Assembly: GCA_043826475.1 (NCBI GenBank)
Contig: JBDRQG010000231.1
Span: 1 to 39,702, forward strand
Length of the DNA stretch: 39,702 nt
Origin: a bacterium
GTDB lineage: Bacteria > Zixibacteria > MSB-5A5 > GN15 > FEB-12
Direction: 5' to 3'
Shown: positions 8,867 through 38,950 of the stretch, one piece after another
Layout of the letters: every line of letters starts with the position of its first letter
Position numbering within the stretch: position 1 is the first letter of the stretch
The notes under the pieces: generated by a model
Told to the model about the DNA's origin: nothing
Databases searched by the model: none
What the model saw: the letters and a program-made list of their open reading frames with translations, nothing else
Position numbers and translations under genes: made by a program

Positions 8867-10798
8867 ATGCTTACAAAAATCAAACTCCGGTTAAAGTTAA
8901 TTCTGAGTTTTTTATCGGTTATTATTATCGTTGGTGTTACATCTACTTTAGTAGGTGTGCATTTGATTGCCGATAGAATAGTGAAACAAGCTCAGGAGAA
9001 GGTTGAATTAGACCTCAATTCAGCAAGAGAAGTATACAATGATAAAATCAGAGATGTTAGTACTTCTATACGTTTGACTGCTCCTCGGTTCTTTTTAAAA
9101 GATGCTGTCTTAAGGAATGACATAGCGAGATTGAAAAAAGAGTTAAGAAGGATAAGAGAAAGGGAATCATTAGATATACTTAATCTAACTGATAAAGATG
9201 GAAAAGTCATTGTTAGAGCTAGAAATCCTGTAATTTATGGAGATGATCAATCAGATGATGAACTTGTTATAGAAGCAATTAGTAAAAAAGAAGTGGTAGC
9301 CTCAACACTAATCATCCCAAGGGATGAATTATTGAAAGAGGGAGAGGATCTGGCCAAGCAAGCATACATAAAGCTTATCCAAACTCCCAAAGCCAAGCCG
9401 ATATCAGGGAGTGAAGAAACCTCAGGAATGATGATAATAGCAGCAGCCCCAATTTTGGATTACCATGGAAACCTAATCGGTATCTTATATGGGGGGAACC
9501 TGCTTAATAGAAATTATGAGATTGTTGATAAAATAAAAGATATAGTTTATAGAGGAGAAACGTATAAGGGAAAAGACATTGGCACTGCTACAATATTTCA
9601 GGGTGATTTACGCATTTCAACCAATGTAGAGAGAAAGGATGGGACAAGAGCTATAGGTACGCGAGTATCCGAAGAAGTGAACAACCAAGTTTTAGTAAAG
9701 GGTATGCCATGGTTTGACAGGGCATTTGTCGTTAATAATTGGTATATAACGGCGTACGAACCGATAAGAAACATCAAAGATGAAGTAATTGGCATTTTGT
9801 ATGTTGGAATACTTGAAGAGAAGTTCGTAGATATGAAAAGACAAACTATGTTGACATTTTTGGGTATAACATTTGCCGGAATTGTCATCGCTTTTGCTAT
9901 TTCGTGTCTTCTTGGAAATAGTATAACAAAGCCAATTCGGTTACTTGTTTCTGCTTCTAATAAATTTGCAAAAGGAGACCTGGACCATAGAGTTGAATAT
10001 AGGAATAAAGATGAGATTGGAGAATTGGAAACAGCATTTAATTATATGTTAGATTCAATAAAGGAGAGAGATGAGAGATTAAAGGAATATACTAAGCAGG
10101 AAATAATGAAGTCTGAAAGATTAGCTATGGTGGGGCAATTAGCCGCAGGTGTTGCCCATGAAATCAATAACCCTCTTGGAAGCATTTTGATATATAGTCA
10201 TCTTTTGTTAGAGGATTTGGAAAAAGAAGATCCCAGGAGAGAAAATCTTGAGAAAATAGTAAATCAAGCCACGCGTTGTAAGAAGATTGTAAAAGGATTA
10301 CTGGATTTTTCTCATCAAACTGAACCTGAGATAAAACCCTCTGATATAAATACGATAGTTACAGAGGTTTTAGCTCTTGTTGAAAGACAGGAAATGTTTC
10401 ATAATATAAAAGTAATAAAAAAATTATTACCAGACCTGCCTACTATTTTGCTTGATAAGAATCAGATACAGCAGGTACTTATGAATATTATTCTTAATGC
10501 TGCTGAGGCTATGGATGGACAGGGTAAGTTGACAGTTGAAACTTCCTCTGATGAAGAATATGCAAGAATAAAATTTACTGATACAGGATGTGGAATTTCA
10601 GAAGAGAATATGAAAAAGCTATTTCAACCATTTTTTAGTACTAAAGAGACAGGTCATGGAACAGGGCTCGGGCTATCAATAAGCTATGGAATTATCAGAA
10701 AGCATAATGGAAAGATAAATGTAAGCAGCGAAATTGGAGAGGGAAGCACTTTCACTATAGTTTTACCCATAAGAGAGAAGAACGACCCCAAAACATGA
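8867..10798 (+). CDS. Sensor histidine kinase: TM, extracytoplasmic Cache-like domain, TM, HAMP, HisKA, HATPase
   Basis: 643 aa. Hydrophobic segments near residues 10-35 and 327-350. H-box AAGVAHEINNPLG, N-box NIILNAAEAM, G-boxes DTGCGI and GTGLGLSIS. Confidence 0.85.
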   Translation: MLTKIKLRLKLILSFLSVIIIVGVTSTLVGVHLIADRIVKQAQEKVELDLNSAREVYNDKIRDVSTSIRLTAPRFFLKDAVLRNDIARLKKELRRIRERESLDILNLTDKDGKVIVRARNPVIYGDDQSDDELVIEAISKKEVVASTLIIPRDELLKEGEDLAKQAYIKLIQTPKAKPISGSEETSGMMIIAAAPILDYHGNLIGILYGGNLLNRNYEIVDKIKDIVYRGETYKGKDIGTATIFQGDLRISTNVERKDGTRAIGTRVSEEVNNQVLVKGMPWFDRAFVVNNWYITAYEPIRNIKDEVIGILYVGILEEKFVDMKRQTMLTFLGITFAGIVIAFAISCLLGNSITKPIRLLVSASNKFAKGDLDHRVEYRNKDEIGELETAFNYMLDSIKERDERLKEYTKQEIMKSERLAMVGQLAAGVAHEINNPLGSILIYSHLLLEDLEKEDPRRENLEKIVNQATRCKKIVKGLLDFSHQTEPEIKPSDINTIVTEVLALVERQEMFHNIKVIKKLLPDLPTILLDKNQIQQVLMNIILNAAEAMDGQGKLTVETSSDEEYARIKFTDTGCGISEENMKKLFQPFFSTKETGHGTGLGLSISYGIIRKHNGKINVSSEIGEGSTFTIVLPIREKNDPKT

Positions 10799-12126: not shown

Positions 12127-12475
12127 CCTGAAAATTTCATTAGCCACTAAGTAACCAAGACACAAAATATTAATAAAATTGAAAATTAATGATAATATTT
12201 AAAACCAATAAATAGAAACTGAGTTATTAATAATAATTTCTCTTATATTAATATTTCTTCGTGACTTATCCCGTAATGGATTCCTGTCTTTGTGACAGAA
12301 AATTCTGGTTAACAATAAATAGTAAGATGGGGCATAACTCCCCATAGATGGGATAAAATCCCCCGTTTTCCATGCCATAAGCGAATAACAACGACCTGAA
12401 TATAAATTTATAATCTCACTTAAAATTAACCTTTTAGGCATTATCCTGAGTGGTTTTTTTATTTAGGCAAAATTA

Positions 12476-12491
12476 TGGCATAAAGTTTGTG
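12476..12491 (+). promoter_or_regulatory. Candidate sigma-54 (-24/-12) promoter, TGGCAT-N5-TTGT
   Basis: TGGCATAAAGTTTGTG matches TGGCAC-N5-TTGC in GG..G spacing but lacks the -12 C. It lies between the sigma-54 activator gene and the tandem-REC / FHL-like genes. Confidence 0.35.
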
Positions 12492-12506
12492 AAATCTAAA
12501 AAAGAG

Positions 12507-13295
12507 ATGATGGATAAAAGTAAAAAAATTCTTGTTATTGATCCCGATGCCGGAATAAGAGAGGAGTATCTCTCTCTTTTCAATGGTGAAGATTATGAGT
12601 TGGAAATAAGTGCAGGGTTCACCAAAGCTATGGAAAAAATTAAGAATGTTCATTTTGATTGCATCATTATAGATACTCATTTGCCTGAGATCTTGGTTTA
12701 TGATGCGGTTCCTATTATAAAGACGATTTACCCGGAAGTTGAAGTAATTGTAACCACTGCCCAAAACAGCAGAGAATTGGAAACCAAGGTGCGAGAACAG
12801 GACATTTTCTATTATTATATAAAATCATTTGAAATGGAAGAGCTAAGGTTAGCGGTTAGTGATATATTCAAAAAATTGGGGAAAATAAAGGAGGTAAAAA
12901 AGATGAAACAACCACCATTGATTCTAATTGTTGATAATGACCCGGATTTTGTGAAAGCAACACGAACTATCTTGAAGACAAAGTCATATAAAGTGGAAAT
13001 CGCATATGACAGAAATGAAGCCATGGAAAAGATCAAACATCTCAAACCCGATTTGATCCTTCTGGATATTATGATGAAGGAAATAGACGATGGATTTACT
13101 ATATGTTATGATCTTAAGCATGATCCTGAGTTAAAAAATATTCCTGTATTTGCTATCTCCGGCATAACTGAAAAGACTGGGTTTAAGTTCTCTCCAAAAA
13201 CCGATGGTGAATATTTTGCGGCAGACGACTATGTAGAAAAGCCTATTGAAGCTGATGATTTGCTGAAAAGGATTGAGGCACTTCTTACAAAATGA
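12507..13295 (+). CDS. Tandem-receiver (REC-REC) response regulator with no output domain
   Basis: The ORF track starts at GTG 12450. I prefer ATG 12507 (MMDKSKKILVID) because the receiver fold begins there. Two REC domains carry acceptor Asp contexts IIIDTHLP and LLDIMM. Confidence 0.8.
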   Translation: MMDKSKKILVIDPDAGIREEYLSLFNGEDYELEISAGFTKAMEKIKNVHFDCIIIDTHLPEILVYDAVPIIKTIYPEVEVIVTTAQNSRELETKVREQDIFYYYIKSFEMEELRLAVSDIFKKLGKIKEVKKMKQPPLILIVDNDPDFVKATRTILKTKSYKVEIAYDRNEAMEKIKHLKPDLILLDIMMKEIDDGFTICYDLKHDPELKNIPVFAISGITEKTGFKFSPKTDGEYFAADDYVEKPIEADDLLKRIEALLTK

Positions 13296-19572: not shown

Positions 19573-19581
19573 GAATTAAAT

Positions 19582-19597
19582 TGGCAAACCATTTGAA
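19582..19597 (+). promoter_or_regulatory. Candidate sigma-54-like -24/-12 element, TGGCAA-N5-TTGA, in the gap between the large- and small-subunit genes
   Basis: TGGCAAACCATTTGAA has the correct GG..G spacing but lacks the -12 C. It sits 10 nt after the hycE-like stop in a 147-bp spacer. Confidence 0.3.
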
Positions 19598-19719
19598 AGC
19601 ACAAACTTTTTAAATGTAGAGAACACAAAGTAGGTACAATAATTGCTAAGTTTTTATTACACTTACATGCTTTACAACCATTCAGCTAACTTTGCGGTTA
19701 ATTTAAGGGGATAGCAGTC

Positions 19720-21119: not shown

Positions 21120-21121
21120 AA

Positions 21122-22954
21122 ATGAATTTGATTCTTCTCATTCCGATTATATTGCCAATAACTATAGGATTTATATGTCTGATTGTTCCTTGGCAGCGAA
21201 TCAGGGAGGTATTCACTTTTATTGGGATGCTACTGACCACTGCTGTGGCTTTGAAAATCCTACTTTTGAATGAACTCAGGTTGCAGATAGAGTGGATTAC
21301 CCTCTCTTCTATGCAAATAAATTTTGATCTTATCTCCTACCACTTTAGCGCCTTCATTCTCCTTGCTTGCTCGTTTTTCGGATTGTTAATCACAATCTAT
21401 TCTCTAAAACAGATGAAAGGCAAATATTATTTGAAAGAATATTACATCTATCTACTTTGGACGGTGGGGATTGCTAATGGTTCTATCCTTTCTAACAATC
21501 TGGTTATTCTACTGATTTTTTGGGGTATTATGCCGGTATTGCTATATCTTCTTATAGATATTAGTGGGTCTGGTTCTGGAAAAGCGGCATTAAAGAGTAT
21601 TATCATCGTAGGAGGTTCAGATTTTCTCATGTTATTGGGTGTGGTTATTATCTGGCACCTTAAAGGCACCATAACAATGAACGAGATAATAATCCCCATA
21701 GAAGATGGATTGTCTACAGCAGCTTTTATTCTTCTGACAATTGGAGCCGTTGCTAAGGCAGGTGCTATGCCTTTTCATAGCTGGATTCCGGACGCAGCTG
21801 AAGTTGCCCACGTACCAGTTATGGCTTTTCTCCCAGCAGCACTTGATAAGCTACTTGGAATTTACCTCTTGGTTAGGATCGCTTTAGACCTCTTTATAAT
21901 GGATTATAGTATGAAGGTTCTCTTGATGAGCATCGGTGCAGTCACCATAATTGCCGCTGTGATGATGGCCCTGGTTCAAAAAGATTTGAAAAAGCTGCTC
22001 TCTTATCATGCCGTATCGCAAGTCGGGTATATGGTTTTGGGGATCGGCACCGGAACACTAATAGGGATTGCTGGCGGGTTATTCCACATGTTGAATAACG
22101 TCATTTACAAATGTTGTCTCTTTCTGTGTTGCGGGGCGGTTGAACACAGAATAAAAACAACTAACTTAGAAAGCTTAGGCGGTTTAGCCAGGACGATGCC
22201 GGTGACTTTCATTACCTGTACTATTGCTGCCCTCTCCATATCCGGGATTCCCCCCTTAAATGGATTTGTCTCCAAATGGATGGTGTATCAAGGGACGATC
22301 GATGTAGGTGGTTCAATATGGCCCATTTTTTTAATCGCTGCAATGTTCGGCAGTGCCTTAACTCTGGCCTCTTTTGTAAAAGTTCTTCACTCGGTCTTCT
22401 TGGGTGAAAAGCCAAAAGAGATCATGGAACCGAAGGAAGTGGAATTCTCGATGAAAGTTCCTTTGGTAATCCTTGCTCTTTTCTGTGTGTTTTTTGGGAT
22501 CTTTGCTCAATTCCCCTTAAAATATTTTATTGGACCGGTGCTGGAAGTAAGATTCAGTGGAATTGGGGAAGCTATTAACCTTAATGGGATGTGGAGTCCT
22601 ACATTAGCCACTACTCTTCTTGCTTTCAGCCTGGTATGCGGGATAATCTTCTATCGAATAGGAAACATTAAGGCTTTGAAAGAGGGGGATATTTTCGTGG
22701 GTGGAGAGCCTATCGATTGTGAGGAGCTAAGAATATCAGGAATTCATTTTTACGATACTATTGAATCTACTGGCTTTTTAAAGTACCTGTATAAAAAAGC
22801 AAAGGCACGAGCATTTGATCCTTATGAATGGGGAAAAACCATCTCTTTTTCTCTTTACTCGGGTTTAAGTAAGATACACAGTGGTATTTTACCAATTTAT
22901 TTACTCTGGATTATCGTCGGATTTGCAGTTTTATTGTTCATATTGATGAAATGA
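21122..22954 (+). CDS. NuoL/M/N / HycC-like antiporter-type membrane subunit
   Basis: The ORF track starts at 21062, inside the previous gene. ATG 21122 (MNLILLIPIIL) begins 3 nt after that gene's stop, giving 610 aa. Motifs include AKAGAMPFHSWIPDA and LLSYHAVSQVGYM. Confidence 0.85.
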   Translation: MNLILLIPIILPITIGFICLIVPWQRIREVFTFIGMLLTTAVALKILLLNELRLQIEWITLSSMQINFDLISYHFSAFILLACSFFGLLITIYSLKQMKGKYYLKEYYIYLLWTVGIANGSILSNNLVILLIFWGIMPVLLYLLIDISGSGSGKAALKSIIIVGGSDFLMLLGVVIIWHLKGTITMNEIIIPIEDGLSTAAFILLTIGAVAKAGAMPFHSWIPDAAEVAHVPVMAFLPAALDKLLGIYLLVRIALDLFIMDYSMKVLLMSIGAVTIIAAVMMALVQKDLKKLLSYHAVSQVGYMVLGIGTGTLIGIAGGLFHMLNNVIYKCCLFLCCGAVEHRIKTTNLESLGGLARTMPVTFITCTIAALSISGIPPLNGFVSKWMVYQGTIDVGGSIWPIFLIAAMFGSALTLASFVKVLHSVFLGEKPKEIMEPKEVEFSMKVPLVILALFCVFFGIFAQFPLKYFIGPVLEVRFSGIGEAINLNGMWSPTLATTLLAFSLVCGIIFYRIGNIKALKEGDIFVGGEPIDCEELRISGIHFYDTIESTGFLKYLYKKAKARAFDPYEWGKTISFSLYSGLSKIHSGILPIYLLWIIVGFAVLLFILMK

Positions 22955-23140
22955 AAAATGCAAACGGTGTACCAGAAGTGCTCGAGGCAAGTCTGGGGAA
23001 TAATTCTCCATGACCGAGGTAGAATTCCCCACAAAATAAACAATTCCAAGTATTTAAAGAGTTTTTTAAATAAATATTTTAGATACAAGCTATTACATTA
23101 CAACCAATTGGGATTTGATCCATCAGGCTGTTTTGTTATT

Positions 23141-23156
23141 TGGTATAGAATTTGAC
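23141..23156 (+). promoter_or_regulatory. Candidate sigma-54-like -24/-12 element, TGGTAT-N5-TTGA
   Basis: TGGTATAGAATTTGAC has the same GG..G spacing, and the same 18-nt distance from the -12 G to the ATG, as the 12476 site. Weaker -24 half (T for C). Confidence 0.25.
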
Positions 23157-23171
23157 GCTACCACAAGTAAG

Positions 23172-24275
23172 ATGATTAATAGAACAGAAAATATTACAAT
23201 ACTTATTATTGATGATGATGAATCTATGTGTGATGCATGTGTGCAGACATACGTGAAAAGTGGTTATATAGTAGATATTGCAGGCGATGGTGTTTCTGGC
23301 ATGCAAAAGGTTAAAGATATAAATCCCGATCTTGTGCTTGTTGACCTGAAAATGCCCGGGATAAGTGGTATGGTTGTGCTTGAAGAGATTAAAAAAATTG
23401 ACCCGGAAATTGTTACTATAGTGATAACGGGTTATGCGTCAATCGATTCGGCAATCGAATCGATGAAAAAAGGCGCATACGATTTTTTGCCTAAGCCGTT
23501 TACTCCTGAAGAGCTACGACTGATCACTAAAAGAGCCCTTGAGAAAAGGCGATTGACTATTGAATCTAATCGCTTACTTCAAGAGAAAAATGAAATGAGA
23601 GAAGGATTCATTAGTATGGTTTCACATCAACTTAGAACTCCTCTTGTTGCTGTGCAGCAATATTTTGAAGTAATTCTCGGTGGTATGGCTGGTGAAGTCA
23701 CTGATGAACAAAGAGAGATGCTGGAGAGGTCTAAAATTCGCATTGATCAGCTGATATATTTAATCAAGGACTGGCTTAATCTATCAAAGATAGATGCTAA
23801 TAGGATTGTAAAAAAATTGGCATCGATAAATATAACTTCAATTTTCACGAATATTTTTAATTTGATGCAGACAATTGCAAAGGAAAAGAATATTACTCTA
23901 AAGATGGATATTCCTGAAAATCTTCCTACAATTTCTGCTGATGAGGAAACTCTGGAACAGGCGTTCTTAAATTTGGTTGATAATGGAATAAAATATGGTA
24001 AAAATGATGGAAGTCTGGTAGTTAGTGCAAAGGAAAAGAATGGATATATAGAGGTGAGTATTTCTGATAATGGTATCGGAATTCCGGAGGATAAATTGCC
24101 TTTTATCTTCGAACAATTTTATCAGGTTGAATATAAGACTGAAAGTGCCGGTTTGGGATTATCTATTGTAAAGAAGATTATGGATGCTCATTCCGCCACT
24201 ATCAAAGTAACAAGTGAACTTGGTAAGGGAAGTACTTTTACGGTGCTATTACCAAAAATCAAGGAGGAGAAATGA
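23172..24275 (+). CDS. Receiver-histidine kinase (REC, HisKA, HATPase) with no sensor domain
   Basis: The ORF track starts at TTG 23115. I prefer ATG 23172 (MINRTENITILIIDDD), giving 367 aa. NtrC-type REC (DLKMPG, GYASIDSA, AYDFLPKPF). H-box SMVSHQLRTPL, N-box NLVDNGIKYG, G-boxes DNGIGI and AGLGLSI. Confidence 0.8.
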   Translation: MINRTENITILIIDDDESMCDACVQTYVKSGYIVDIAGDGVSGMQKVKDINPDLVLVDLKMPGISGMVVLEEIKKIDPEIVTIVITGYASIDSAIESMKKGAYDFLPKPFTPEELRLITKRALEKRRLTIESNRLLQEKNEMREGFISMVSHQLRTPLVAVQQYFEVILGGMAGEVTDEQREMLERSKIRIDQLIYLIKDWLNLSKIDANRIVKKLASINITSIFTNIFNLMQTIAKEKNITLKMDIPENLPTISADEETLEQAFLNLVDNGIKYGKNDGSLVVSAKEKNGYIEVSISDNGIGIPEDKLPFIFEQFYQVEYKTESAGLGLSIVKKIMDAHSATIKVTSELGKGSTFTVLLPKIKEEK

Positions 24276-25060: not shown

Positions 25061-25217
25061 TAGAGTTAGATGCTTATAAGAATGAGATGAGCAATTATAA
25101 AACATTATTTACAGTTATTTGCATCGATTCTTATGATATTATGGTTTTATGTGAATTACTTTCTCGACCTTTCCAACAACTAATGGAAAGGAGAGATAGT
25201 GATAATTAGGAGGGAAA

Positions 25218-26963
25218 ATGGACAAAAAGAGAATCTTTATTATTGATGATGATATTGATTTCGTAAAAGCAATCAAGACTATACTGGAAAAGAATTCTTT
25301 TGAATGTGTTTGCGCATATTCGGCAAAAGAGGGTCTTGAAAAAGTCAAGGAAGTTAAGCCTGACTTAATTGTACTGGATGTTATGATGGAAAGTACTACA
25401 GCTGGTTTGGGAGTCGTTAATAAACTAAGAAATCCGGACCGGGATTCGCCATATTTTGAGTGTTCCAAGATTCCGATATTAATAGTAACAAGTATTCAGA
25501 AGATAATGGAAACAAATTTTAAGGAAATTGCCGGCACACAACTTTTGCCCGTAGATGACTTTCTTGAAAAGCCGGTTCCGGCTGAAGTGCTTATATCCAA
25601 AGTAAAATTTCTAACTAAGACAATATCGCTTGAAGAGCTTCTTGCCAAGGCCAGGAAACCGGGTGAGGATGCTATGGAGTTGCATCCTTATTATCATGGT
25701 AAGATTTCAGTTGTACCTAAATGCTGTATCAGGGATTTCAATGATTTTGCAATCTGGTATACCCCCGGAGTTGCTGAACCTTGCCGTGATATTAACAAGA
25801 ATCCGCAAAAAGTTTATGAGCATACAAGTAAGGGTAATCTTGTTGCAGTTGTATCTGATGGAACAAGAGTTTTAGGACTTGGCGATATAGGTCCCGAAGC
25901 TAGTCTGCCCGTTATGGAGGGAAAGGCAATCCTTTTTAAATATTTAGGTGGTGTTGATGCGTTTCCTATCTGCCTCGACACAAAAGATCCGGAGAAGCTA
26001 ATAGAAACTACACTTTTGCTCCAACCTTCATTCGGTGGAATAAACCTGGAGGATATAGCTCAGCCAAAATGCTTTTACATACTTGACGAACTTAGAAAAA
26101 AGGCAAGGATACCGGTATGGCATGATGACCAGCAGGGGACCGCTGCGATAACCCTGGCAGGTCTTATTAATGCTGTAAAATTTGTCGGGAAAAAATTGAA
26201 TAATGTAAAAATAGCAATGGTTGGGGCAGGTGCAGCTAACACAGCCTGTTTAAGAGTGATGATTGCCGCCGGAATTCCTGCGGAAAATGTAATAATGTGT
26301 GATATAAACGGTACTCTTCATTCTGAAAGAACGGATTTTAAAGAGACGGATCCCAGGTATGAGTTCTGTAGAATAACAAACATAGAAAAAAGAAGAGGCG
26401 GTATTTCAGAAACAATGAAGGGTGCGGATGTCTGTATTGCTTTGTCGAAATCCGGACCAGGTACAATAAAACCGGAGTGGGTTAAGAGCATGGCAAACGA
26501 TGCAATAGTTTTTGCATGTGCTAATCCTGTTCCAGAGATATGGCCCTGGGAAGCAAAAGAAGCTGGTGCAAAAATAGTTGCGACCGGAAGATCGGATTTT
26601 CCTAATCAGGTCAATAATTCTCTGGGATTTCCTGGAATATTCAGGGGAGCTCTTGATGTAATGGCAAAAACAATAACAGATGAGATGTGTATAGCGGCAG
26701 CTTACGAGCTCGCAAAATGTGCTGAAGATAAAGGTTTTTCAGAAGAGTACATAATCCCCAGTATGGATGAATGGGAAGTTTATCCAAGAGAAGCGGCTGC
26801 TGTGGGAATGAAAGCAATCGAACAAGGTGTTGCCAGAATAATTATGTCAAGAGAGGAATTGTATAAGAAAGCGGAAATCATGATAAAACTTGCCCGGGAA
26901 GAAACTGAGTCATTAATGAAAGGTGGTTTTATAAAAATGCCTAAAAAACAGGAGACGGAATGA
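25218..26963 (+). CDS. Fusion of an N-terminal receiver domain to an NAD(P)-dependent malic enzyme
   Basis: 581 aa. Residues 1-~130 are REC (IIDDD, VLD54VMM, IVTS, LEKP). From ~155 onward, malic enzyme motifs: WYTPGV, VSDGTRVLGLGDIG, MEGKA, NLEDI, WHDDQQGTA, GAGAA, ANPVPEI. AGGAGGG RBS. Confidence 0.85.
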   Translation: MDKKRIFIIDDDIDFVKAIKTILEKNSFECVCAYSAKEGLEKVKEVKPDLIVLDVMMESTTAGLGVVNKLRNPDRDSPYFECSKIPILIVTSIQKIMETNFKEIAGTQLLPVDDFLEKPVPAEVLISKVKFLTKTISLEELLAKARKPGEDAMELHPYYHGKISVVPKCCIRDFNDFAIWYTPGVAEPCRDINKNPQKVYEHTSKGNLVAVVSDGTRVLGLGDIGPEASLPVMEGKAILFKYLGGVDAFPICLDTKDPEKLIETTLLLQPSFGGINLEDIAQPKCFYILDELRKKARIPVWHDDQQGTAAITLAGLINAVKFVGKKLNNVKIAMVGAGAANTACLRVMIAAGIPAENVIMCDINGTLHSERTDFKETDPRYEFCRITNIEKRRGGISETMKGADVCIALSKSGPGTIKPEWVKSMANDAIVFACANPVPEIWPWEAKEAGAKIVATGRSDFPNQVNNSLGFPGIFRGALDVMAKTITDEMCIAAAYELAKCAEDKGFSEEYIIPSMDEWEVYPREAAAVGMKAIEQGVARIIMSREELYKKAEIMIKLAREETESLMKGGFIKMPKKQETE

Positions 26964-28297
26964 TTATATTATGCCTTAATTGCGGAAGCTCATCTGTGAA
27001 ATATAGGTTATATGACTGGAACAAAAAGGAAACTATTGCTACTGGAATTGTTGAAAGAGTAACAAGTAAGGGCAGCTTTTGCATACAGGAAGTTTCTGGA
27101 CGGGATAATGTTAGGGTCGAAAGCGAATGTCCAACACATAGCGAGGCGATAAAACTCATTATTGAAATGCTTACATCTCCAAAAGAGGGTGTAATCAAGG
27201 ACCTTGTGGGAATATCCGCAGTTGGACATCGTGTTGTTCATGGTGGTGAGAGGTTTGCTAAATCTGTTATTATAACCGATGAAGTCGTTGAGGAATTTAA
27301 GAAGTTAGCGGATTTGGCTCCACTTCATAATCCACCAAATATACTTGGTATAGAAGCAGCAAAAGAGTTGTTACCTAATGTTCCACATATGGCAATTATG
27401 GATACAGCATGGCACCAAACAATGCCTAAATATGTATTTACGTACGCTCTGCCTTATGAATGGTATGAGAAATATAAAATAAGAAGATACGGATTTCACG
27501 GTACATCACTTTTGTATGTTTCAAGAAGAGCATCGGTTCTCCTGGGAAAAGATCCTTTTGAATGTAATCTTATCATATGTCACATTGGGAATGGTGTGTC
27601 TTTGAATGCAGTTAAAAATGGGATATCTTTTGATACAAGTATGGGATTTACACCTTTAGAAGGATTGGTGATGGGGACGAGAGCTGGAGACCATGATGCA
27701 GCTATTGATTTCTATATAATGAATAAGGAGAGCTATTCAGCCAATGAGATGAATTCAATACTTAATAAAAAGTCCGGTATCCTGGGTATAACAGGTGAAT
27801 ATAGTGATAGACGTGAAGTAATCGAGGCAGCCGAGAGAGGCGATGAGAGAGCTAAACTTGCACTTGATATTGAGACATACAGAATTAGGAAATATATTGG
27901 TGCCTACGCAGCGGCAATAGGTGGTGTTGATGCTATCGTCTTTACAGCAGGAGCTGGTGAGATGTGCGATATTATAAGGGCAAGGGCTCTGGATGGTTTG
28001 GATTTTATGGGAATCAAATATGATAAAAACAAAAATAAGATTGCAAAGACAAGAAATGCAGAATGTGATATCAGCGCTGAGGATTCCAAGGTAAAGATTT
28101 ATGTAATTCCAACAGATGAAGAAAGAGTCTTTATAGAAGATGTTGTAGCTCTTTACGAAAAATCGAGGGGTAATAAGGTAAGATATACTTACAGATTCCA
28201 ATCGCCGTATTACAGAAATTCACTTCGTGATAGTGAATTTGAGAATGAGTGTGAAAAGAACCCAGAACTTCATAAAGTAGTAGCTAAAGTAAATTAG
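26960..28297 (+). CDS. ackA: Acetate kinase with a ~45-aa C-terminal extension
   Basis: 445 aa. ATGA overlap with the REC-malic enzyme gene. LNCGSSSVKY, VGHRVVHGG, RRYGFHGTS, HIGNGVS, VFTAGAGE, VIPTDEE. Confidence 0.9.
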   Translation: MIILCLNCGSSSVKYRLYDWNKKETIATGIVERVTSKGSFCIQEVSGRDNVRVESECPTHSEAIKLIIEMLTSPKEGVIKDLVGISAVGHRVVHGGERFAKSVIITDEVVEEFKKLADLAPLHNPPNILGIEAAKELLPNVPHMAIMDTAWHQTMPKYVFTYALPYEWYEKYKIRRYGFHGTSLLYVSRRASVLLGKDPFECNLIICHIGNGVSLNAVKNGISFDTSMGFTPLEGLVMGTRAGDHDAAIDFYIMNKESYSANEMNSILNKKSGILGITGEYSDRREVIEAAERGDERAKLALDIETYRIRKYIGAYAAAIGGVDAIVFTAGAGEMCDIIRARALDGLDFMGIKYDKNKNKIAKTRNAECDISAEDSKVKIYVIPTDEERVFIEDVVALYEKSRGNKVRYTYRFQSPYYRNSLRDSEFENECEKNPELHKVVAKVN

Positions 28298-28778: not shown

Positions 28779-30032
28779 ATGGTAGTTAAAGTTCCTTATG
28801 GAAAAGATGAAATAATAGATATAAATATAGATGATAAATTTGTTTCTGAAATTGTAAATCCTAATAAAGTCCCGGTTGGAAATGAGAAGAAAACGATTCA
28901 GAATGCTGTATCAAATCCTATCAATTCAAAAAATTTCCATGATTTTCTAAGAGATTCCAAAGATGTTCTGTTTATCGTAAATGATGCAACACGTCCTACT
29001 CCTACAGCAAAAGTATTAGATATTATCTATGATGATATTAAGGATTATAACATAAAATTTATTGTTGCGACAGGAATTCATCGAGCTCCGACTGAAGATG
29101 AGTATGTTCAAATTTTCGGGAAGCAATATCAGGAATTCAAAGATATAATCTATGCTCACGATTCAAAAAAAGAAGAAGATATGGTATATCTCGGAACGTC
29201 GAAAAATGGAACCGAGATGCTTGTGAATAAAATAGGTGTCGATGCGGATAAGATTGTCATCATCGGATCCGTTGAACCGCACTATTTTGCTGGATATACA
29301 GGTGGGCGGAAGTCATTTTTACCCGGTATTGCTTCATATAAAACGATTGAACAGAATCATAAACTAGCTCTAAGTCCAAAAGCTAAAAGCCTTGCATTAG
29401 AGGGCAATCCTGTCCATGAGGATATGATCGATGCTTTGAAGACGGTCAAGAAAGATATTTTTGCAATAATGACAATCCTCGATATGGATCATAACATTTA
29501 TTCAGCAACATCTGGAAATATTAATGATTCATTCACCGCAGCAATTGAAAAAGCGAATGATGTTTTTGTAGTAAAAATAAAAGAAAAAGTGGATATTGTT
29601 GTTTCTATCGCCAAATTTCCTATGGACATAGATTTATACCAATCTCAAAAAGCCATTGACAATGCAAAATTGGCGTTAAAGAAAGATGGAATTCTAATAC
29701 TTGTTTCAAAATGTCGACATGGTATTGGTCACGAGACATTTGTTAATCTTATGAGTTCTTGTGGTTCCCCGAAGGAAGTCTTTGAGAAGATAGAGAAAGA
29801 GTATGTAGTCGGTTACCATAAGGCGGCCAAGATGGCTGAAATCGGACTGTGGGCACAGATGTGGGGCATTACAGATCTCCCGCATGATGTCTTACAGAAA
29901 GTTTTTATCAAACCTTTTAATTCTCTTCAGGTTGCCATAGATAGTGCCTTAGAACTTAAAGGTGAAAATGCCCAAATTTTATTTATGATGGATGGAAGCG
30001 TAACCGTTCCTATGCTTTCTGATTACCAATAA
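28779..30032 (+). CDS. larA: LarA-family nickel-pincer-cofactor-dependent 2-hydroxyacid racemase/epimerase homologue
   Basis: 417 aa. [43 protein letters not shown] align with LarA [43 protein letters not shown]. Both catalytic His, the cofactor-tethering Lys and the Ni-ligand His are retained. Confidence 0.85.
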   Translation: [417 protein letters not shown]

Positions 30033-30101: not shown

Positions 30102-31829
30102 ATGTCAAGTTTACCAAGTGATAAGTATTACAAAGATTTAACTGAAATGTCTCCACTTCGGGCAATTGCTGAAACAGTACTTTTAAATCCAAAAGTGCGA
30201 AAGATAAACATTGCTGAAGCTTATGAATTGGCAAAAAATCAACCTGGGGTATCAGAAACAGACTTAGAGATTTACTCTAAAACCGCGGCCCTTTTTGGAC
30301 TGCCAAAAGGAGCAAAGGTCCTAAATGATTGTCATGGTAAAATTATTGGTAGAACTGCAAAAGCGAGGAGATTTTATAATCGAATTCCTGTAGCAGAAAA
30401 GAAAAAGGTTGAAGGTGATATTAGAGAAGCAATATATCAGCTTGAGTATTATGACCTTATAAAAGCAGAAGCAGTGATAGGTTTGGACCCTGATTTAATG
30501 ATAAAGGCGACTTTTGTTACATCAACATCTGACGCAAGCAATGTGTTTAACTGGTTGTCAAATTTTAATCCACTTGAATTATCGGAAAAGTATAAAAATA
30601 GTAAATCCTTGCCGATTCAGGATATAATAATTGTAGCATTTAATGATTGGACATGTGATGACCCCTATTATCATAATGTTGGTGCGCCACAACTTGCCCT
30701 GGTTGACGAGAAGCATAATGTGATTTTTAATTTGGGAATGCGCTATTTTGGTGAACGTAAAAAAGGAACACTTACTCTTGCTTGGACATCCGGAATGCGA
30801 TTGGGAATGGCTGCCTGTCATGGCGGTATAAAAGAGATTGATTTTAGACTATGTGATGAAAAAAAGTATAGAGAATTAGGGAAGAAATCTATTGCAATTT
30901 TCGGACTTTCGGGAACTGGGAAATCTTCTCATACAAATTCACATGATAATGGAGGTACATTACCTGCAGGCTTCAAAAAAGCGACTCTTCATGATGACGC
31001 ATTTCAGATTGACACTAAGGATAAAGTCTGTCGGGTATGGGAACCGGCACTTTTTGATAAAACAGATAGTAGAGACTCAAATCATCCCGATTGGGAATAC
31101 TGTCTAGCGGTAATGAATCATGCTTTGACAAAAAATGATGGAAAATTAGTTCCTCTAGGGCGAGATATTCGCCAGGCAAATGGGCGAGCATTATTCGATC
31201 GCGACCTTCTAGGTAAATGGGTGGATAGGTGTAGTTTTCCTAAGGCGTTAGTCTGGCTCATGAAAGATTCAATTTTACCGCCTGTACTAAAATATAAAGA
31301 TAAATATCTTGCTGTTGCGATGGGAGCGGCATTAATAACAAAAAGAAGCAGAGCCGAAAATGTAACAGAGGAAGAATTAACAAAATTAGTTTTTGAACCA
31401 TTTGCAAATCCTTTTAGAGTTTATGAACTTTATAAAGATGTCGAGGCATTTCTAAAAGTGTTAGAAACAGGTGCAGATTGTTACACTTTCAATTCATCAG
31501 GATACTGGAAATCCTCTGATGAGCAATTGGAAAATATTGAACTCCAGACTTCGCTTACAATTCACACTGGTATTTTGATGGACCAAATTGAGTGGGAAGA
31601 TTGGAAATTATTACCTGGAGCGATGATTCCTACAAAAGAATCTATCGATAAGTTACTTCCAGGTTATTATGAAAAATATAATCCATATAAGCGCACCAAT
31701 CCAGAAGGATATAGAGCATTAATAAAAGATCGTTTTGAGCAACGCTGTGAGTTTTTGAAGTCATCGGATATATTATCGAAACCAGCACTGCTTGGGAAAT
31801 TAGTATATGCTTTACAAGTTGTTGAATGA
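30102..31829 (+). CDS. Divergent member of the ATP-dependent PEP carboxykinase family
   Basis: 575 aa. GRTAKARRF (vs GRSPKDKY), GMRYFGERKKG (vs GTWYGGEMKKG), IFGLSGTGKSS (vs FFGLSGTGKTT), HDDAF (vs GDDEH), FNSSGYW (vs VNTGWNG). E. coli PckA motifs are recalled from memory. Confidence 0.6.
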   Translation: MSSLPSDKYYKDLTEMSPLRAIAETVLLNPKVRKINIAEAYELAKNQPGVSETDLEIYSKTAALFGLPKGAKVLNDCHGKIIGRTAKARRFYNRIPVAEKKKVEGDIREAIYQLEYYDLIKAEAVIGLDPDLMIKATFVTSTSDASNVFNWLSNFNPLELSEKYKNSKSLPIQDIIIVAFNDWTCDDPYYHNVGAPQLALVDEKHNVIFNLGMRYFGERKKGTLTLAWTSGMRLGMAACHGGIKEIDFRLCDEKKYRELGKKSIAIFGLSGTGKSSHTNSHDNGGTLPAGFKKATLHDDAFQIDTKDKVCRVWEPALFDKTDSRDSNHPDWEYCLAVMNHALTKNDGKLVPLGRDIRQANGRALFDRDLLGKWVDRCSFPKALVWLMKDSILPPVLKYKDKYLAVAMGAALITKRSRAENVTEEELTKLVFEPFANPFRVYELYKDVEAFLKVLETGADCYTFNSSGYWKSSDEQLENIELQTSLTIHTGILMDQIEWEDWKLLPGAMIPTKESIDKLLPGYYEKYNPYKRTNPEGYRALIKDRFEQRCEFLKSSDILSKPALLGKLVYALQVVE

Positions 31830-37495: not shown

Positions 37496-38950
37496 ATGGA
37501 AAAAATTGATTTACGATTAAAGAACCTAAACGAGGTATTTCCGGATAATTTTTCGGAAGAACAAATTGCCAAAGCAAAGACATTATTTCTAAAAAAATTA
37601 TCTGAATCGGCGCACAAATTTTACGGTGGAAAAATTCAGACTGCACCTAAAGCCGGTGTATTTGGATTTAATTGGTTTAATGTCTGGTACACACCTGGCG
37701 TGTCAAAAATATCAACGACGATTCGGGATGATAATGATACATCTTTTGAATTGTCAAATAGGGGCAATCTCGTCGGTATTGTAAGTGATTCAACGAGAGT
37801 GTTAGGTGATGGAAACTGTACTCCTGCCGGCGGATTAGGCGTAATGGAAGGCAAGGCATTCCTGATGAAATATTTAGGTGGTGTTGATGCTGTTCCGCTT
37901 TGTATTGATAGTCGAAACGAGAAGGGTGAGAATGATCCCCAGAAGATTATTGATTTTGTAAAAATGGTTCAGCATAGTTTCGGAGCAATTAATTTAGAAG
38001 ATATTTCTCAGCCGAATTGTTATAAAGTATTGGATACACTGCGTGAAGAATGTGATATTCCGGTTTGGCATGATGACGCTCAGGGAACTGCTTGTGTCAC
38101 TTTAGCCGGATTGATTAATGCATTGAAATTAGTTAATAAAAAGATTTCCAATGTTAAAATTACCATGTTAGGTGCCGGAGCATCCAATACAACAATAGCA
38201 AGGTTAATCACTACAGCTGGTGGAGATCCTGGTAATATAATTATGTTTGACTCTACGGGCGGATTGCATAAAAACAGGGAAGATATTAAATCTGATCCAA
38301 GATTCTATCGCAAATGGGAACTTTGTCAATCAACAAATCCAAAATGCATAAGTGATTTTACCGAAGCCTGTAAAGGCGCCGATGTCCTGATTGCTCTGTC
38401 TAAACCGGGTCCAGATGTAGTGAAACCCGAATGGATTCGGTCAATGGCCAATAAATCGATTGTTTTTGTTTGTGCAAACCCGGTCCCGGAGATTTACCCC
38501 TATGCTGCGAAAGAGGCCGGAGCATATATTGTTGCAACCGGACGTGGCGATTTTCCGAACCAGATCAATAATTCACTGGGATTTCCCGGTATTCTGAAAG
38601 GCGCTTTGCTAGTAAGAGCTAAAAAAGTAACCGACAATATGGCAATCACAGCCGCTAAATCCCTGGCAAATTATGCAGAAAATAGAGGTATTGATCCGAA
38701 TAACATCGTTCCGACTATGGAAGAATTTGGGGTATTTCAGACTGAAACAGCCGATGTAGCGATGCAGGCTATTAAAGATGGCGTTGCAAGGAAAGAAATT
38801 ACCAGAGAAGAGGCTTTCCAAAAGTCTAAAGAGGGTATCATATATTCCCGTACCATGACGAAAACATTAATGGATGAGGGATATATCAAGGAACCTCCGC
38901 AAGAGTTATTACAGGATGCACTCGATTGGGCGATTGAGCAAGCTAGTTAA
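37496..38950 (+). CDS. NAD(P)-dependent malic enzyme (stand-alone paralogue of the 25218 fusion)
   Basis: 484 aa. WYTPGV, VSDSTRVLGDG, MEGKA, NLEDIS, WHDDAQGTA, GAGAS, ANPVPEI, GFPGI. Clearly paralogous to the malic-enzyme part of the 25218 product (my rough estimate by eye, not counted, is about 55-60 percent identity). Confidence 0.9.
   Translation: MEKIDLRLKNLNEVFPDNFSEEQIAKAKTLFLKKLSESAHKFYGGKIQTAPKAGVFGFNWFNVWYTPGVSKISTTIRDDNDTSFELSNRGNLVGIVSDSTRVLGDGNCTPAGGLGVMEGKAFLMKYLGGVDAVPLCIDSRNEKGENDPQKIIDFVKMVQHSFGAINLEDISQPNCYKVLDTLREECDIPVWHDDAQGTACVTLAGLINALKLVNKKISNVKITMLGAGASNTTIARLITTAGGDPGNIIMFDSTGGLHKNREDIKSDPRFYRKWELCQSTNPKCISDFTEACKGADVLIALSKPGPDVVKPEWIRSMANKSIVFVCANPVPEIYPYAAKEAGAYIVATGRGDFPNQINNSLGFPGILKGALLVRAKKVTDNMAITAAKSLANYAENRGIDPNNIVPTMEEFGVFQTETADVAMQAIKDGVARKEITREEAFQKSKEGIIYSRTMTKTLMDEGYIKEPPQELLQDALDWAIEQAS

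What the first reader, a model, noticed from the sequence alone, without database searches (positions are those of the whole stretch)
25218..26963. Receiver domain fused directly to a malic enzyme: phosphorylation-controlled central-carbon enzyme
Residues 1-~130 are a complete receiver. The acidic pocket (IIDDD), acceptor Asp54 (GAT at 25377-25379), Thr/Ser (IVTS) and Lys (LEKP) are all present. The rest is a full-length malic enzyme with all the motifs of its stand-alone paralogue at 37496.
Most response regulators output to DNA binding or to cyclic-nucleotide or chemotaxis functions. A receiver fused to a core metabolic oxidoreductase implies direct post-translational control of the malate/pyruvate node by a two-component pathway. 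Such control is otherwise done allosterically or, in MaeB, via a PTA-like domain.
The paralogue without REC provides a built-in control.
Basis: partly seen in the sequence, partly recalled or inferred. Interest (0 to 1): 0.65.

Follow-up and report, generated by a model that had tools for sequence, protein, structure and literature searches.

The report
Receiver domain fused to malic enzyme
A phosphorylation-sensing "receiver" module is genuinely fused to the front of a complete malic enzyme in a small group of uncultured anaerobic bacteria. It always sits beside its own signalling kinase and acetate kinase, which suggests (unproven) that a two-component pathway switches a central-carbon enzyme directly rather than through gene expression.

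Summary
ORF 25218-26963 (+) encodes 581 aa: a receiver (REC, 1-133), a 4-residue connector, then a full small-type malic enzyme (ME).

It is not an assembly artefact. About 32 independent protein clusters (62-95% identity) share the architecture. All phospho-acceptor residues (D10, D11, D54, T/S91, F115, K118) and all ME catalytic residues (Y181, K236, E278, D303, G336) are conserved.

REC is attached to the N-terminal "crossover" arm. In solved small MEs this arm reaches into the partner subunit and delivers the catalytic tyrosine.

The gene lies in a conserved module: Cache sensor kinase, σ54 regulator, soluble REC-histidine kinase, REC-REC, REC-ME, overlapping acetate kinase.

New here: the same REC subtype is fused to acetate kinase in another lineage (20 clusters), again beside the same REC-kinase type.

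Best reading (confidence about 0.6): an enzymatic response regulator whose Asp54 phosphorylation tunes malate-to-pyruvate flux. Direction and structural mechanism are inferred, not shown.

Novelty: a new variant of a known kind. REC-metabolic-enzyme fusions were noted in censuses, but I found no description of this one, and several NCBI records hide it by mis-calling the start codon.

The parts
25218..26963 (+). REC-ME gene (581 aa): receiver + small-type malic enzyme in one reading frame
   Evidence: ORF; Pfam Response_reg, malic and Malic_M; about 32 homologous clusters with the same architecture
25218..25616 (+). Receiver domain, residues 1-133. (βα)5 fold with a very short α4 (93-97) and a long α4-β5 loop. 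D10/D11/D12 acidic pocket, D54 acceptor, T91, F115 switch residue, K118-P119.
   Evidence: Invariant or conservative columns in the 31-sequence alignment A1; DSSP of the AF2 model; codons
25377..25379 (+). GAT codon of the predicted phospho-acceptor Asp54
   Evidence: invariant in A1 and A2
25617..25628 (+). 4-residue connector (K134-T-I-S137) between REC helix α5 (122-133) and the first ME helix (138-159)
   Evidence: AF2 secondary structure; stand-alone ME P0032 aligns from its residue 4 to window residue 134
25629..26963 (+). Complete malic enzyme (residues 138-581). Catalytic Y181, K236, E278/D279, D303/D304; GAGAAN at 336-341; N436, N466/N467.
   Evidence: Invariant in the 72-sequence alignment A3; constant offset of 129 to MaeB Y52/K107/E149/D174/G207; Foldseek match to 2dvm/1ww8 with TM 0.91-0.92 and rmsd 1.9-2.0 Å
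23115..24275 (+). Soluble REC-HisKA-HATPase histidine kinase. The ORF starts at TTG 23115, but the likely real start is ATG 23172, giving 367 aa (homologues are 363-376 aa). Presumed phosphodonor for REC-ME.
   Evidence: Pfam; present upstream in all 9 distinct REC-ME loci with upstream sequence; its REC is 56% identical to the σ54-RR REC
23141..23156 (+). σ54-type -24/-12-like element TGGTAT-AGAAT-TTGAC just upstream of the REC-HK start. The -12 element is degenerate in this clade.
   Evidence: Positional counterparts: perfect TGGCAC-N5-TTGCT in L005, CGGCAC-N5-TTGCT in L004, TGGTAT-N5-TTGCA in L009
24272..25060 (+). REC-REC protein (262 aa), overlapping the kinase gene by 4 nt. Both receivers are the same subtype as the ME receiver (about 34% identity). 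Likely a co-substrate, phosphate sink or connector.
   Evidence: Pfam with two Response_reg stretches; syntenic
25061..25217 (+). Conserved leader of REC-ME: σ70-like TTTACA-N18-TATGAT (25108-25137), stable hairpin (about 25152-25208), SD GGAGGG (25209-25214)
   Evidence: Promoter scan; RNA fold z = -3.06; near-identical DNA in the window, L001, L006 and L008; no Rfam family
26960..28297 (+). Acetate kinase (445 aa), start overlapping the REC-ME stop by 4 nt (ATGA)
   Evidence: Pfam 476 bits and TIGR00016 488 bits; directly downstream of REC-ME in 9 of 10 loci
8867..10798 (+). Membrane Cache-HAMP histidine kinase (best match AtoS-type, below cut-off); candidate primary sensor
   Evidence: Pfam; NCBIfam; contiguous with the module in L001, L005, L008, L009 and L090
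10795..12126 (+). σ54-dependent (NtrC/AtoC-type) response regulator, overlapping the Cache-HK gene
   Evidence: Pfam; NCBIfam; its REC is 56% identical to the REC-HK receiver
12450..13295 (+). Second REC-REC protein (orf12450). Its C-terminal receiver is the same subtype as the ME receiver (35% identity).
37496..38950 (+). Stand-alone malic enzyme (484 aa) used as a comparator; 53% identical, a different subclass

Best explanation
REC-ME is an enzymatic response regulator. A complete, phosphorylatable receiver domain was captured from a family of stand-alone single-domain receivers. It was placed, with only a 4-residue connector, on the N-terminal crossover arm of a catalytically intact, dimeric small malic enzyme.

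Proposed pathway (inferred): it is the metabolic output of a conserved multi-receiver pathway. A membrane Cache kinase feeds both a σ54 transcriptional regulator and the receiver of a soluble REC-histidine kinase. That kinase then phosphorylates a distinct receiver subtype, found on REC-REC proteins and on REC-ME.

Proposed effect (inferred): phosphorylation of Asp54 flips the T91/F115 switch and changes the α4-β5-α5 face. The most likely consequence is a change in REC-REC pairing across the ME dimer, not occlusion of the active site. This would pull on the crossover arm that carries catalytic Tyr181 into the partner subunit. The result would be a change in malate-to-pyruvate flux on a post-translational time-scale, coordinated with the co-translated acetate kinase at the end of the same malate-to-acetate, ATP-yielding branch.

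Shown here: the architecture, residue conservation, synteny, receiver subtype relationships and the attachment point.

Inferred: who phosphorylates whom, that phosphorylation changes activity, its direction, and the structural mechanism.
For: 1. The fusion is real and under selection. There are about 32 clusters at 62-95% identity from ENA, NCBI, JGI and Logan assemblies. Five species-representative genomes carry the junction.
2. The receiver active site is intact. D10, D11, D54, F115, K118 and P119 are invariant and T91 is T or S across 31 sequences. The AF2 model shows a (βα)5 fold at pLDDT around 90.
3. The enzyme is intact. Y181, K236, E278, D303 and G336 are invariant in 72 sequences. They map at a constant offset of 129 onto the MaeB catalytic residues. 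The model superimposes on 2dvm/1ww8 at TM 0.91-0.92.
4. The attachment point is mechanistically sensitive. Stand-alone ME P0032 starts at window residue about 131. In small and hybrid MEs the N-terminal extension crosses the dimer interface and donates the catalytic Tyr in trans (PMC7902834).
5. A dedicated kinase is present. A REC-HisKA-HATPase gene lies upstream on the same strand in all 9 distinct loci with upstream sequence.
6. The receivers fall into two tiers. HK-REC versus σ54-RR-REC is 56% identical. ME-REC versus the REC-REC domains is about 34%, but only 24-28% versus the first tier.
7. σ54-type promoter elements lie upstream of the kinase operon in several lineages.
8. There is an independent parallel. 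The same receiver subtype (41-44% identity) is fused to acetate kinase in 20 clusters. It again sits next to a REC-HK that is 45% identical to the window's.
9. Only one ME position distinguishes fused from stand-alone enzymes. This argues against a co-adapted docking surface and favours a tether or dimerisation mechanism.
Against: - There is no experimental or structural evidence that phosphorylation alters activity, and the direction of any effect is unknown.
- The AF2 job returns no coordinates or PAE and models only a monomer, so the REC-ME and REC-REC interfaces could not be examined.
- The lack of fused-specific ME residues, together with cassette-like exchange of the NAD-binding core with other MEs, shows the catalytic part has not visibly co-evolved with the receiver.
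- The receiver diverges faster than the enzyme (52-92% versus 68-97% identity).
- One lineage (L004) lacks the acetate kinase partner.
- The σ54 element in the window's own clade has a degenerate -12 box.
Confidence: 0.6

Rival explanations
1. Acetyl phosphate, not the kinase, is the physiologically relevant phosphodonor. In this reading the receiver reads the acetyl-P pool, which is the substrate of the co-translated acetate kinase, and feeds back on malate decarboxylation. This would be functionally analogous to acetyl-CoA inhibition of MaeB through its PTA-like domain. It is not mutually exclusive with the best explanation.
For: The acetate kinase gene overlaps the REC-ME stop codon in 9 of 10 loci. 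Two lineages (L005, L091) also place an acyl-kinase-like gene plus a PTA_PTB gene directly upstream. The same receiver subtype is fused to acetate kinase itself in 20 clusters. From established knowledge, many receivers autophosphorylate from acetyl phosphate. MaeB couples ME activity to the acetyl-CoA pool (PMC7902834).
Against: A dedicated REC-HK is conserved next to both REC-ME and AckA-REC. That would be unnecessary if acetyl-P were the sole donor. L004 has REC-ME and REC-HK but no acetate kinase. Nothing in the sequence predicts acetyl-P reactivity.
Confidence: 0.2
2. The information flows the other way, and the enzyme acts as a sensor ('trigger enzyme'). Substrate or cofactor occupancy of the ME domain would alter how fast the fused receiver accepts or loses phosphate. 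REC-ME would then be a metabolite-gated phosphate sink that tunes signalling from the REC-HK to the REC-REC proteins.
For: The module is unusually rich in receivers with no output domain: REC-REC, a second REC-REC at 12450-13295, and up to three REC-RECs in L091. This is typical of sink or branched phosphorelay designs, such as the four-component RedCDEF system (PMC2755868, listed). No ME surface has co-adapted to the receiver.
Against: No downstream DNA-binding or other effector is linked to the REC-REC proteins, so it is unclear what such tuning would control. All ME catalytic residues are strictly conserved, so the domain is a working enzyme and not a degenerate sensor like the MaeB PTA domain. 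The fusion to a second working enzyme (AckA) in the same pathway is more simply explained as enzyme control.
Confidence: 0.12
3. The receiver is a structural or oligomerisation appendage with no signalling role (a pseudo-receiver), or the fusion is an assembly or frameshift artefact.
For: α4 is very short and the α4-β5 region is remodelled. Some NCBI gene calls omit most of the receiver.
Against: All five phospho-chemistry residues and the aromatic switch are invariant or conservatively kept across 31 sequences down to 62% identity. Pseudo-receivers typically lose these residues. The architecture recurs in about 32 clusters from four independent data sources. There is a single open frame with a strong SD. 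The truncated NCBI calls begin at Met97 inside the receiver and still contain β5, K118 and α5, so they are mis-called starts.
Confidence: 0.04

Closest known systems
MaeB-type hybrid malic enzymes (ME + C-terminal PTA-like domain; PDB 6zng, 6znj; PMC7902834)
   Same: Both have a small, domain-swapped ME catalytic core (42-45% identity, Foldseek E about 1e-43) fused to a regulatory domain recruited from another protein family. In both, the link is to the acetyl-CoA/acetyl-P branch of metabolism.
   Different: The regulatory domain here is a receiver at the N-terminus, not a degenerate phosphotransacetylase at the C-terminus. There is no PTA_PTB hit. The input would be covalent Asp phosphorylation by a kinase rather than acetyl-CoA binding. 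No hexameric hub is expected. The attachment is to the crossover arm rather than through the L1/L2 linker helices.
Enzymatic response regulators: CheB (REC-methylesterase), PleD/WspR (REC-GGDEF), RpfG (REC-HD-GYP), PorX (REC-PglZ)
   Same: An N-terminal phospho-accepting receiver directly controls a fused catalytic domain. The conserved D/D/D/T/K chemistry is present, and a cognate kinase is encoded nearby.
   Different: The output here is a core central-carbon oxidoreductase, not a signalling or second-messenger enzyme. The connector is only 4 residues. The receiver belongs to a subtype otherwise found as stand-alone proteins of about 130 aa or as REC-REC proteins. No co-adapted docking surface is visible, unlike the occlusion mechanism of CheB (the latter from established knowledge).
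REC fusions to standard metabolic enzymes noted in response-regulator censuses (Galperin et al. 2018, PMC5847659: REC-glycosyltransferase, REC-thioredoxin reductase, REC-pyruvate phosphate dikinase, KaiC-REC)
   Same: The concept is the same: a REC attached to a housekeeping enzyme, 'placing their activity under environmental control', with a narrow phyletic distribution and no experimental study.
   Different: Malic enzyme and acetate kinase are not among the described partners in the passages read or in full-text searches. Here the fusion also comes with a conserved dedicated REC-HK and multi-receiver module, and with a sister fusion in the same pathway.
Two-component control of malic enzyme genes (MaeKR in Lactobacillales; DcuSR/CitAB family; PMC5457438)
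   Same: A two-component system links organic-acid sensing to malate decarboxylation by malic enzyme.
   Different: Those systems act transcriptionally through DNA-binding regulators. Here the receiver is on the enzyme itself, with a σ54 regulator probably providing the transcriptional arm in parallel.
AckA-REC fusion family found here (P0199, P0271-P0289)
   Same: It has the same receiver subtype (41-44% identity), the same adjacent REC-HK type (45% identity), and sits in the same metabolic branch.
   Different: The receiver is C-terminal, the enzyme is acetate kinase, and the lineage (higher GC) and neighbourhood (ECF sigma / anti-sigma / YbjQ; PFOR nearby) are different. It is also undescribed in the literature searched.

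Membership tests
Response regulator receiver (CheY-like REC, PF00072) | Profile match above the curated threshold | tested here: met
   Response_reg 56.4 bits against a cut-off of 30.2, residues 6-129
Response regulator receiver (CheY-like REC, PF00072) | (βα)5 fold | tested here: met
   The AF2 model gives β1 4-9, α1 13-24, β2 28-33, α2 36-46, β3 50-53, α3 62-70, β4 87-91, α4 93-97 (short), β5 114-117 and α5 122-133. pLDDT is mostly 86-94.
Response regulator receiver (CheY-like REC, PF00072) | Acidic Mg2+ pocket (DD after β1), phospho-acceptor Asp at the end of β3, Thr/Ser at the end of β4, Lys(-Pro) at the end of β5, aromatic switch residue | tested here: met
   D10, D11, D54, F115, K118 and P119 are invariant, D12 is at least 90% conserved, and T91 is T or S in 31 fused sequences
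Response regulator receiver (CheY-like REC, PF00072) | Is actually phosphorylated on the conserved Asp | not testable with these tools
   Needs a biochemical assay (Phos-tag, 32P transfer, mass spectrometry)
Response regulator receiver (CheY-like REC, PF00072) | Partner histidine kinase | tested here: met
   A REC-HisKA-HATPase gene lies upstream on the same strand in all 9 distinct loci with upstream sequence. Cognate pairing itself is inferred.
Malic enzyme, small prokaryotic type (PF00390 + PF03949) | Both ME domains above curated thresholds, at full length | tested here: met
   malic 101.9 bits and Malic_M 81.8 bits. The protein aligns to stand-alone 445-aa ME P0032 over P0032 residues 4-445 at 81% identity.
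Malic enzyme, small prokaryotic type (PF00390 + PF03949) | Catalytic Tyr and Lys, divalent-metal ligands, GxGxxG dinucleotide motif | tested here: met
   Y181, K236, E278, D279, D303, D304, G336 and G338 are invariant in 72 sequences. They correspond to MaeB Y52, K107, E149, D174 and G207.
Malic enzyme, small prokaryotic type (PF00390 + PF03949) | Fold matches solved MEs | tested here: met
   Foldseek against 2dvm/1ww8 gives TM (target-normalised) 0.91-0.92 and rmsd 1.9-2.0 Å over 427-428 columns
Malic enzyme, small prokaryotic type (PF00390 + PF03949) | Domain-swapped homodimer; oxidative decarboxylation of malate; cofactor preference | not testable with these tools
   Only a monomer model was available, and there is no enzymology. 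The NAD-binding core exists in at least 3 variants across the family, so cofactor preference may differ between members.
MaeB hybrid-type malic enzyme | C-terminal phosphotransacetylase-like (PTA_PTB) regulatory domain | tested here: not met
   There is no PTA_PTB hit and the protein ends about 60 residues after Malic_M. The NCBIfam MaeB model PRK12861 matches only its positions 9-412 of 764, at 365 bits against a cut-off of 1178.
Enzymatic response regulators (REC + catalytic output in one polypeptide) | Intact receiver and intact catalytic domain in one conserved ORF | tested here: met
Enzymatic response regulators (REC + catalytic output in one polypeptide) | Catalytic activity depends on the receiver's phosphorylation state | not testable with these tools
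   Requires kinetics with and without a phosphodonor or BeF3-, and D54 variants

The most novel reading that the evidence does not exclude
REC-ME and AckA-REC may be two visible outputs of a previously unrecognised kind of two-component network in uncultured anaerobes. In this reading, a soluble REC-histidine kinase, itself driven by an upstream sensor kinase, phosphorylates a special receiver subtype that is bolted directly onto enzymes of the malate-to-pyruvate-to-acetyl-P-to-acetate branch. Receiver-only REC-REC proteins would act as sinks or connectors, and acetyl phosphate as a possible second input. This would amount to phosphorelay-based, transcription-independent flux control of fermentation. 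It would play the role that allostery (MaeB and acetyl-CoA) or Ser/Thr phosphorylation (isocitrate dehydrogenase kinase) plays elsewhere.
Probability: 0.35. Interest if true: 0.8.

Novelty: new variant of a known kind. Interest (0 to 1): 0.6.

Why it matters
Two-component systems are usually thought of as transcriptional or behavioural switches. Bacterial central-carbon enzymes are usually thought to be controlled by allostery, acetylation or, rarely, Ser/Thr phosphorylation.

A receiver wired directly into the catalytic crossover arm of malic enzyme would be different. Together with a sister fusion on acetate kinase and a dedicated kinase, it would be a concrete, experimentally tractable case of His-Asp signalling setting flux at the malate/pyruvate/acetate node within seconds.

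The proteins are soluble and the assay is a simple NAD(P)H read-out, so the hypothesis can be tested directly with acetyl phosphate, BeF3- and D54 variants.

It also offers a natural design for engineering kinase-switchable metabolic enzymes. Finally, it flags an annotation problem: several public records truncate the receiver and label the gene as an ordinary malic enzyme.

Tried and rejected
1. Frameshift or assembly artefact: rejected. The junction has a single open frame and the fusion recurs in about 32 independent clusters.
2. Representative-library search with receiver + junction. The fused family is invisible there, probably because it was absorbed into 50%-identity clusters headed by stand-alone MEs. 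The search could not measure the spread of REC-ME, but it did reveal AckA-REC.
3. Profile search with alignment A2. The output was dominated by short proteins and did not even list the known full-length fused members, so it says nothing about more divergent or independent REC-ME fusions.
4. Search for a co-adapted REC-docking surface on ME. Only one group-specific position was found (Y549 versus F), so there is no evidence for a docking surface.
5. The AF2 model. It gives confidence and secondary structure but no coordinates or PAE, so the inter-domain interface, dimer geometry and REC-REC pairing could not be assessed. Foldseek only confirmed the ME fold.
6. Rfam on the whole window and on the conserved leader: no family. 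The single sub-threshold hit (SpR10, 18.6 bits against a cut-off of 50) was dismissed as chance.
7. Covariation test on the leader hairpin: not possible. Four loci are near-identical and the fifth is unalignable.
8. σ54 consensus scan of the whole window. The 34 matches with up to 2 mismatches against about 23 expected were not informative alone. Only the positional comparison across loci was useful.
9. Literature: no paper describing REC-ME or AckA-REC. PMC2890560 mentions both terms but in unrelated contexts.
10. Ligand of the Cache sensor: only sub-threshold AtoS/AtoC-type matches, so it remains undefined.
11. Taxonomy. NCBI labels for the MAGs are inconsistent (Cloacimonadota, WOR-3, Neomarinimicrobiota, Armatimonadota, 'bacterium'), so the lineage could not be named.
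Full report
**Observation.** Pfam finds a receiver domain at residues 6-129 (56 bits, cut-off 30). It also finds both malic enzyme domains, at 162-293 (102 bits) and 306-521 (82 bits). The named residues and codons are all correct: IIDDD is residues 8-12, Asp54 is GAT at 25377-25379, IVTS is 89-92 and LEKP is 116-119. A strong Shine-Dalgarno (GGAGGG, 25209-25214) precedes the ATG. The 'paralogue' at 37496-38950 is a real stand-alone ME, but it is only 53% identical and belongs to another subclass, nearest to Entamoeba ME 3nv9.

**Not an artefact; distribution.** A search of 5.8 billion proteins returned about 32 clusters (90% level) with the same REC + malic + Malic_M architecture. They are 577-592 aa, 62-95% identical, and come from ENA, NCBI, JGI and Logan assemblies. 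A scan of 185,579 species-representative genomes with a receiver-plus-junction profile found five genomes with the complete junction. All are uncultured MAGs, labelled inconsistently as Cloacimonadota, WOR-3, Neomarinimicrobiota or 'bacterium'. So the fusion is real but phyletically narrow. Several NCBI records call the gene as a 482-487-aa 'NADP-dependent malic enzyme' starting at Met97, inside the receiver. This hides the architecture in public annotation.

**The receiver.** Across 31 fused proteins, D10, D11, D54, F115 (the CheY Tyr106 position), K118 and P119 are invariant. D12 is at least 90% conserved and T91 is always T or S. The AF2 model (mean pLDDT 87.9, pTM 0.79) shows a canonical (βα)5 fold. 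The exception is α4, which is very short (93-97) and followed by an irregular loop. The nearest non-fused relatives (40-58% identity) are stand-alone single-domain receivers of about 130-140 aa in Anaerolineae, Acidobacteriota and other phyla, and REC-REC proteins of about 265 aa. The simplest history is therefore capture of a single-domain receiver.

**The enzyme and the attachment point.** A stand-alone 445-aa ME (P0032) aligns from its residue 4 to window residue 134 at 81% identity. The receiver was therefore added to a complete enzyme with essentially no linker. In the model, α5 (122-133) is joined by four residues to the first ME helix, 138-159. The catalytic residues map at a constant offset of 129 onto Bdellovibrio MaeB: Y52, K107, E149, D174 and G207 correspond to Y181, K236, E278, D303 and G336. 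All are invariant in a 72-sequence alignment. The ME part superimposes on Pyrococcus ME at TM 0.91-0.92. According to the MaeB structural study, small and hybrid MEs form a domain-swapped dimer. Their N-terminal extension crosses the interface and donates the catalytic tyrosine to the partner's active site (PMC7902834). The receiver is thus bolted onto the element that carries Tyr181 in trans. Only one ME position (Y549 versus F) separates fused from stand-alone enzymes. A CheB-like co-adapted docking surface is therefore unlikely. A mechanism that works through the tether or through receiver pairing is more plausible.

**Context.** The gene is embedded in a conserved module.
- Immediately upstream are a soluble REC-HisKA-HATPase kinase (likely start 23172) and a REC-REC protein that overlaps it.
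- Immediately downstream, overlapping by 4 nt, is acetate kinase.
- The kinase is upstream in all nine distinct loci that have upstream sequence.
- Acetate kinase follows directly in nine of ten loci.
- In most loci a Cache-HAMP sensor kinase and a σ54 (AtoC/NtrC-type) regulator directly precede the module. In the window an 11-kb formate-hydrogenlyase-like cluster is inserted between them.

The receivers fall into two tiers. The kinase's own receiver is 56% identical to the σ54 regulator's receiver, which suggests both are fed by the Cache kinase. The receivers of REC-ME, REC-REC and a second REC-REC (12450-13295) form a separate subtype at 34-42% identity, and these are the likely clients of the soluble kinase. 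σ54-type -24/-12 elements lie upstream of the kinase operon in several lineages: perfect in L005, near-consensus in L004 and L009, and degenerate in the window's clade. REC-ME also has its own conserved leader, with a σ70-like promoter and a stable hairpin.

**An independent parallel.** Searching with the receiver alone uncovered P0199, an acetate kinase with the same receiver subtype (41-44% identity, all phospho-site residues present) fused to its C-terminus. This AckA-REC family comprises 20 clusters at 64-100% identity. In two distinct lineages it lies immediately downstream of a REC-HisKA-HATPase kinase, with a 15-nt gap in one and a 4-nt overlap in the other. The one compared (L086) is 45% identical over its full length to the window's kinase. 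The same kinase-plus-receiver pair has therefore been attached to two different enzymes of the same branch. The branch runs from malate to pyruvate, then on to acetyl-P and acetate plus ATP.

**Mechanism.** My best-supported reading, at confidence about 0.6, is an enzymatic response regulator. The soluble REC-HK would phosphorylate Asp54, and acetyl phosphate may contribute. Phosphorylation would switch the T91/F115 pair and the α4-β5-α5 face and change how the two receivers sit over the ME dimer. That would reposition the crossover arm and Tyr181, so changing malate decarboxylation. Architecture, conservation, synteny and the attachment point are shown. Phosphotransfer partners, the effect on activity and its sign are inferred. 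There are three rivals:
- Acetyl-P as the main donor (0.2, not exclusive with the best reading).
- The enzyme as a metabolite sensor gating a phosphate sink (0.12).
- A pseudo-receiver or artefact (0.04). This is contradicted.

**Comparison and novelty.** The closest known systems are:
- MaeB, which shares the catalytic core but has a C-terminal PTA-like acetyl-CoA sensor. The defining PTA domain is absent here.
- The classical enzymatic response regulators (CheB, PleD/WspR, RpfG, PorX).
- The REC-metabolic-enzyme fusions listed in Galperin's censuses. These include REC-pyruvate phosphate dikinase in archaeal metagenomes, and all have narrow distributions and no experimental study (PMC5847659).

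I found no paper describing REC-ME or AckA-REC. It is therefore a new variant of a known kind, not a new category.

**Limits.** No coordinates or PAE were available from the structure tool, and only a monomer was modelled. The breadth of the family beyond 62% identity could not be measured. The sensor's ligand and the organisms' taxonomy remain undefined.

Noticed in passing
P0199 and P0271-P0289; loci L086-L089 (gene at L086:8001-9623) and L092:6001-7620: An undescribed acetate kinase-REC fusion family (20 clusters, 539-550 aa). It carries the same receiver subtype as REC-ME. Where upstream sequence is available, it lies directly downstream of a REC-HisKA-HATPase kinase. The L086 kinase is 45% identical to the window's REC-HK.
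   Followed up: partly
window 26190-26492 (residues 325-425 of REC-ME) and alignment A3: The NAD-binding core of REC-ME is mosaic. Window versus P0005 is 92% identical in REC, 84% in the ME N-domain and 97% in the ME C-part, but only 57% in this core. At least three core variants (38-60% identical to each other) occur on otherwise near-identical backbones. One resembles Pyrococcus ME. This suggests cassette-like recombination and possibly switching of cofactor specificity.
   Followed up: partly
window 25061-25217: The 157-nt leader upstream of REC-ME is almost identical in DNA between the window, L001, L006 and L008, even though the proteins are only 84-94% identical. It contains a σ70-like promoter (25108-25137) and a stable hairpin (about 25152-25208, z = -3.06) that ends at the SD. 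No Rfam family matches, and it is too invariant to test covariation.
   Followed up: partly
window 23141-23156; L005:3027; L004:6330; L009:5813: σ54-type -24/-12 elements lie upstream of the REC-HK operon. L005 has a perfect TGGCAC-N5-TTGCT. The window's clade has TGGTAT-N5-TTGAC with a degenerate -12 box. This is consistent with control by the adjacent σ54 regulator.
   Followed up: partly
P0390 (MBU4445975.1), P0391 (RKY52925.1), P0400 (NQV19624.1): NCBI gene calls for orthologues start at an internal Met, for example Met97 ('METNFKEIAGT...') inside the receiver. These give 482-487-aa 'NADP-dependent malic enzyme' entries that hide the fusion but still contain β5, Lys118 and α5 of the receiver.
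   Followed up: yes
window 12450-13295 (likely start near 12508): A second REC-REC protein lies directly after the σ54 regulator. It is preceded by a σ54-like motif TGGCATAAAGTTTGT (12476-12490), which overlaps the start of the longest ORF but lies upstream of the likely ATG. It is followed by a formate-hydrogenlyase-like cluster: a molybdopterin oxidoreductase at 13372-15474 and Ech/Hyc/Nuo-like subunits at 17449-22954. In relatives such as L001 this 11-kb cluster is absent from this position.
   Followed up: no
window 28779-30032 and 30102-31829: A LarA-family racemase has as its best NCBIfam match the nickel-dependent malate racemase LarAH6 (389 bits, below the 500 cut-off). It is followed by a divergent PEP-carboxykinase-like protein (Pfam 40.9 bits only). 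Both lie just downstream of REC-ME and AckA, which hints at a D/L-malate handling locus.
   Followed up: no
window 26960-28297: The window's acetate kinase is 445 aa. The Pfam model ends at residue 391, leaving a C-terminal extension of about 50 residues with no domain hit. Orthologues next to REC-ME are likewise 445-449 aa.
   Followed up: no
P0186, P0197, P0231: There are other fusions of this receiver subtype: REC + His_biosynth (HisA/HisF-like, 323 aa, possibly chimeric), ferredoxin (Fer4) + REC (287 aa), and a [FeFe]-hydrogenase-like-PAS-HK-REC-REC protein (1033 aa).
   Followed up: no
L005:5997-7982 and L091:3993-6017: In two divergent lineages an acyl-kinase-like gene (359 aa, Acetate_kinase family, butyrate-kinase size) and a PTA_PTB phosphotransacylase are inserted directly upstream of REC-ME. 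These are in addition to the downstream acetate kinase.
   Followed up: no
window 25218-25616 vs 25617-26963: The receiver-coding part has lower G+C (35.8%) than the ME-coding part (41.6%). The window mean is 38.5%.
   Followed up: no
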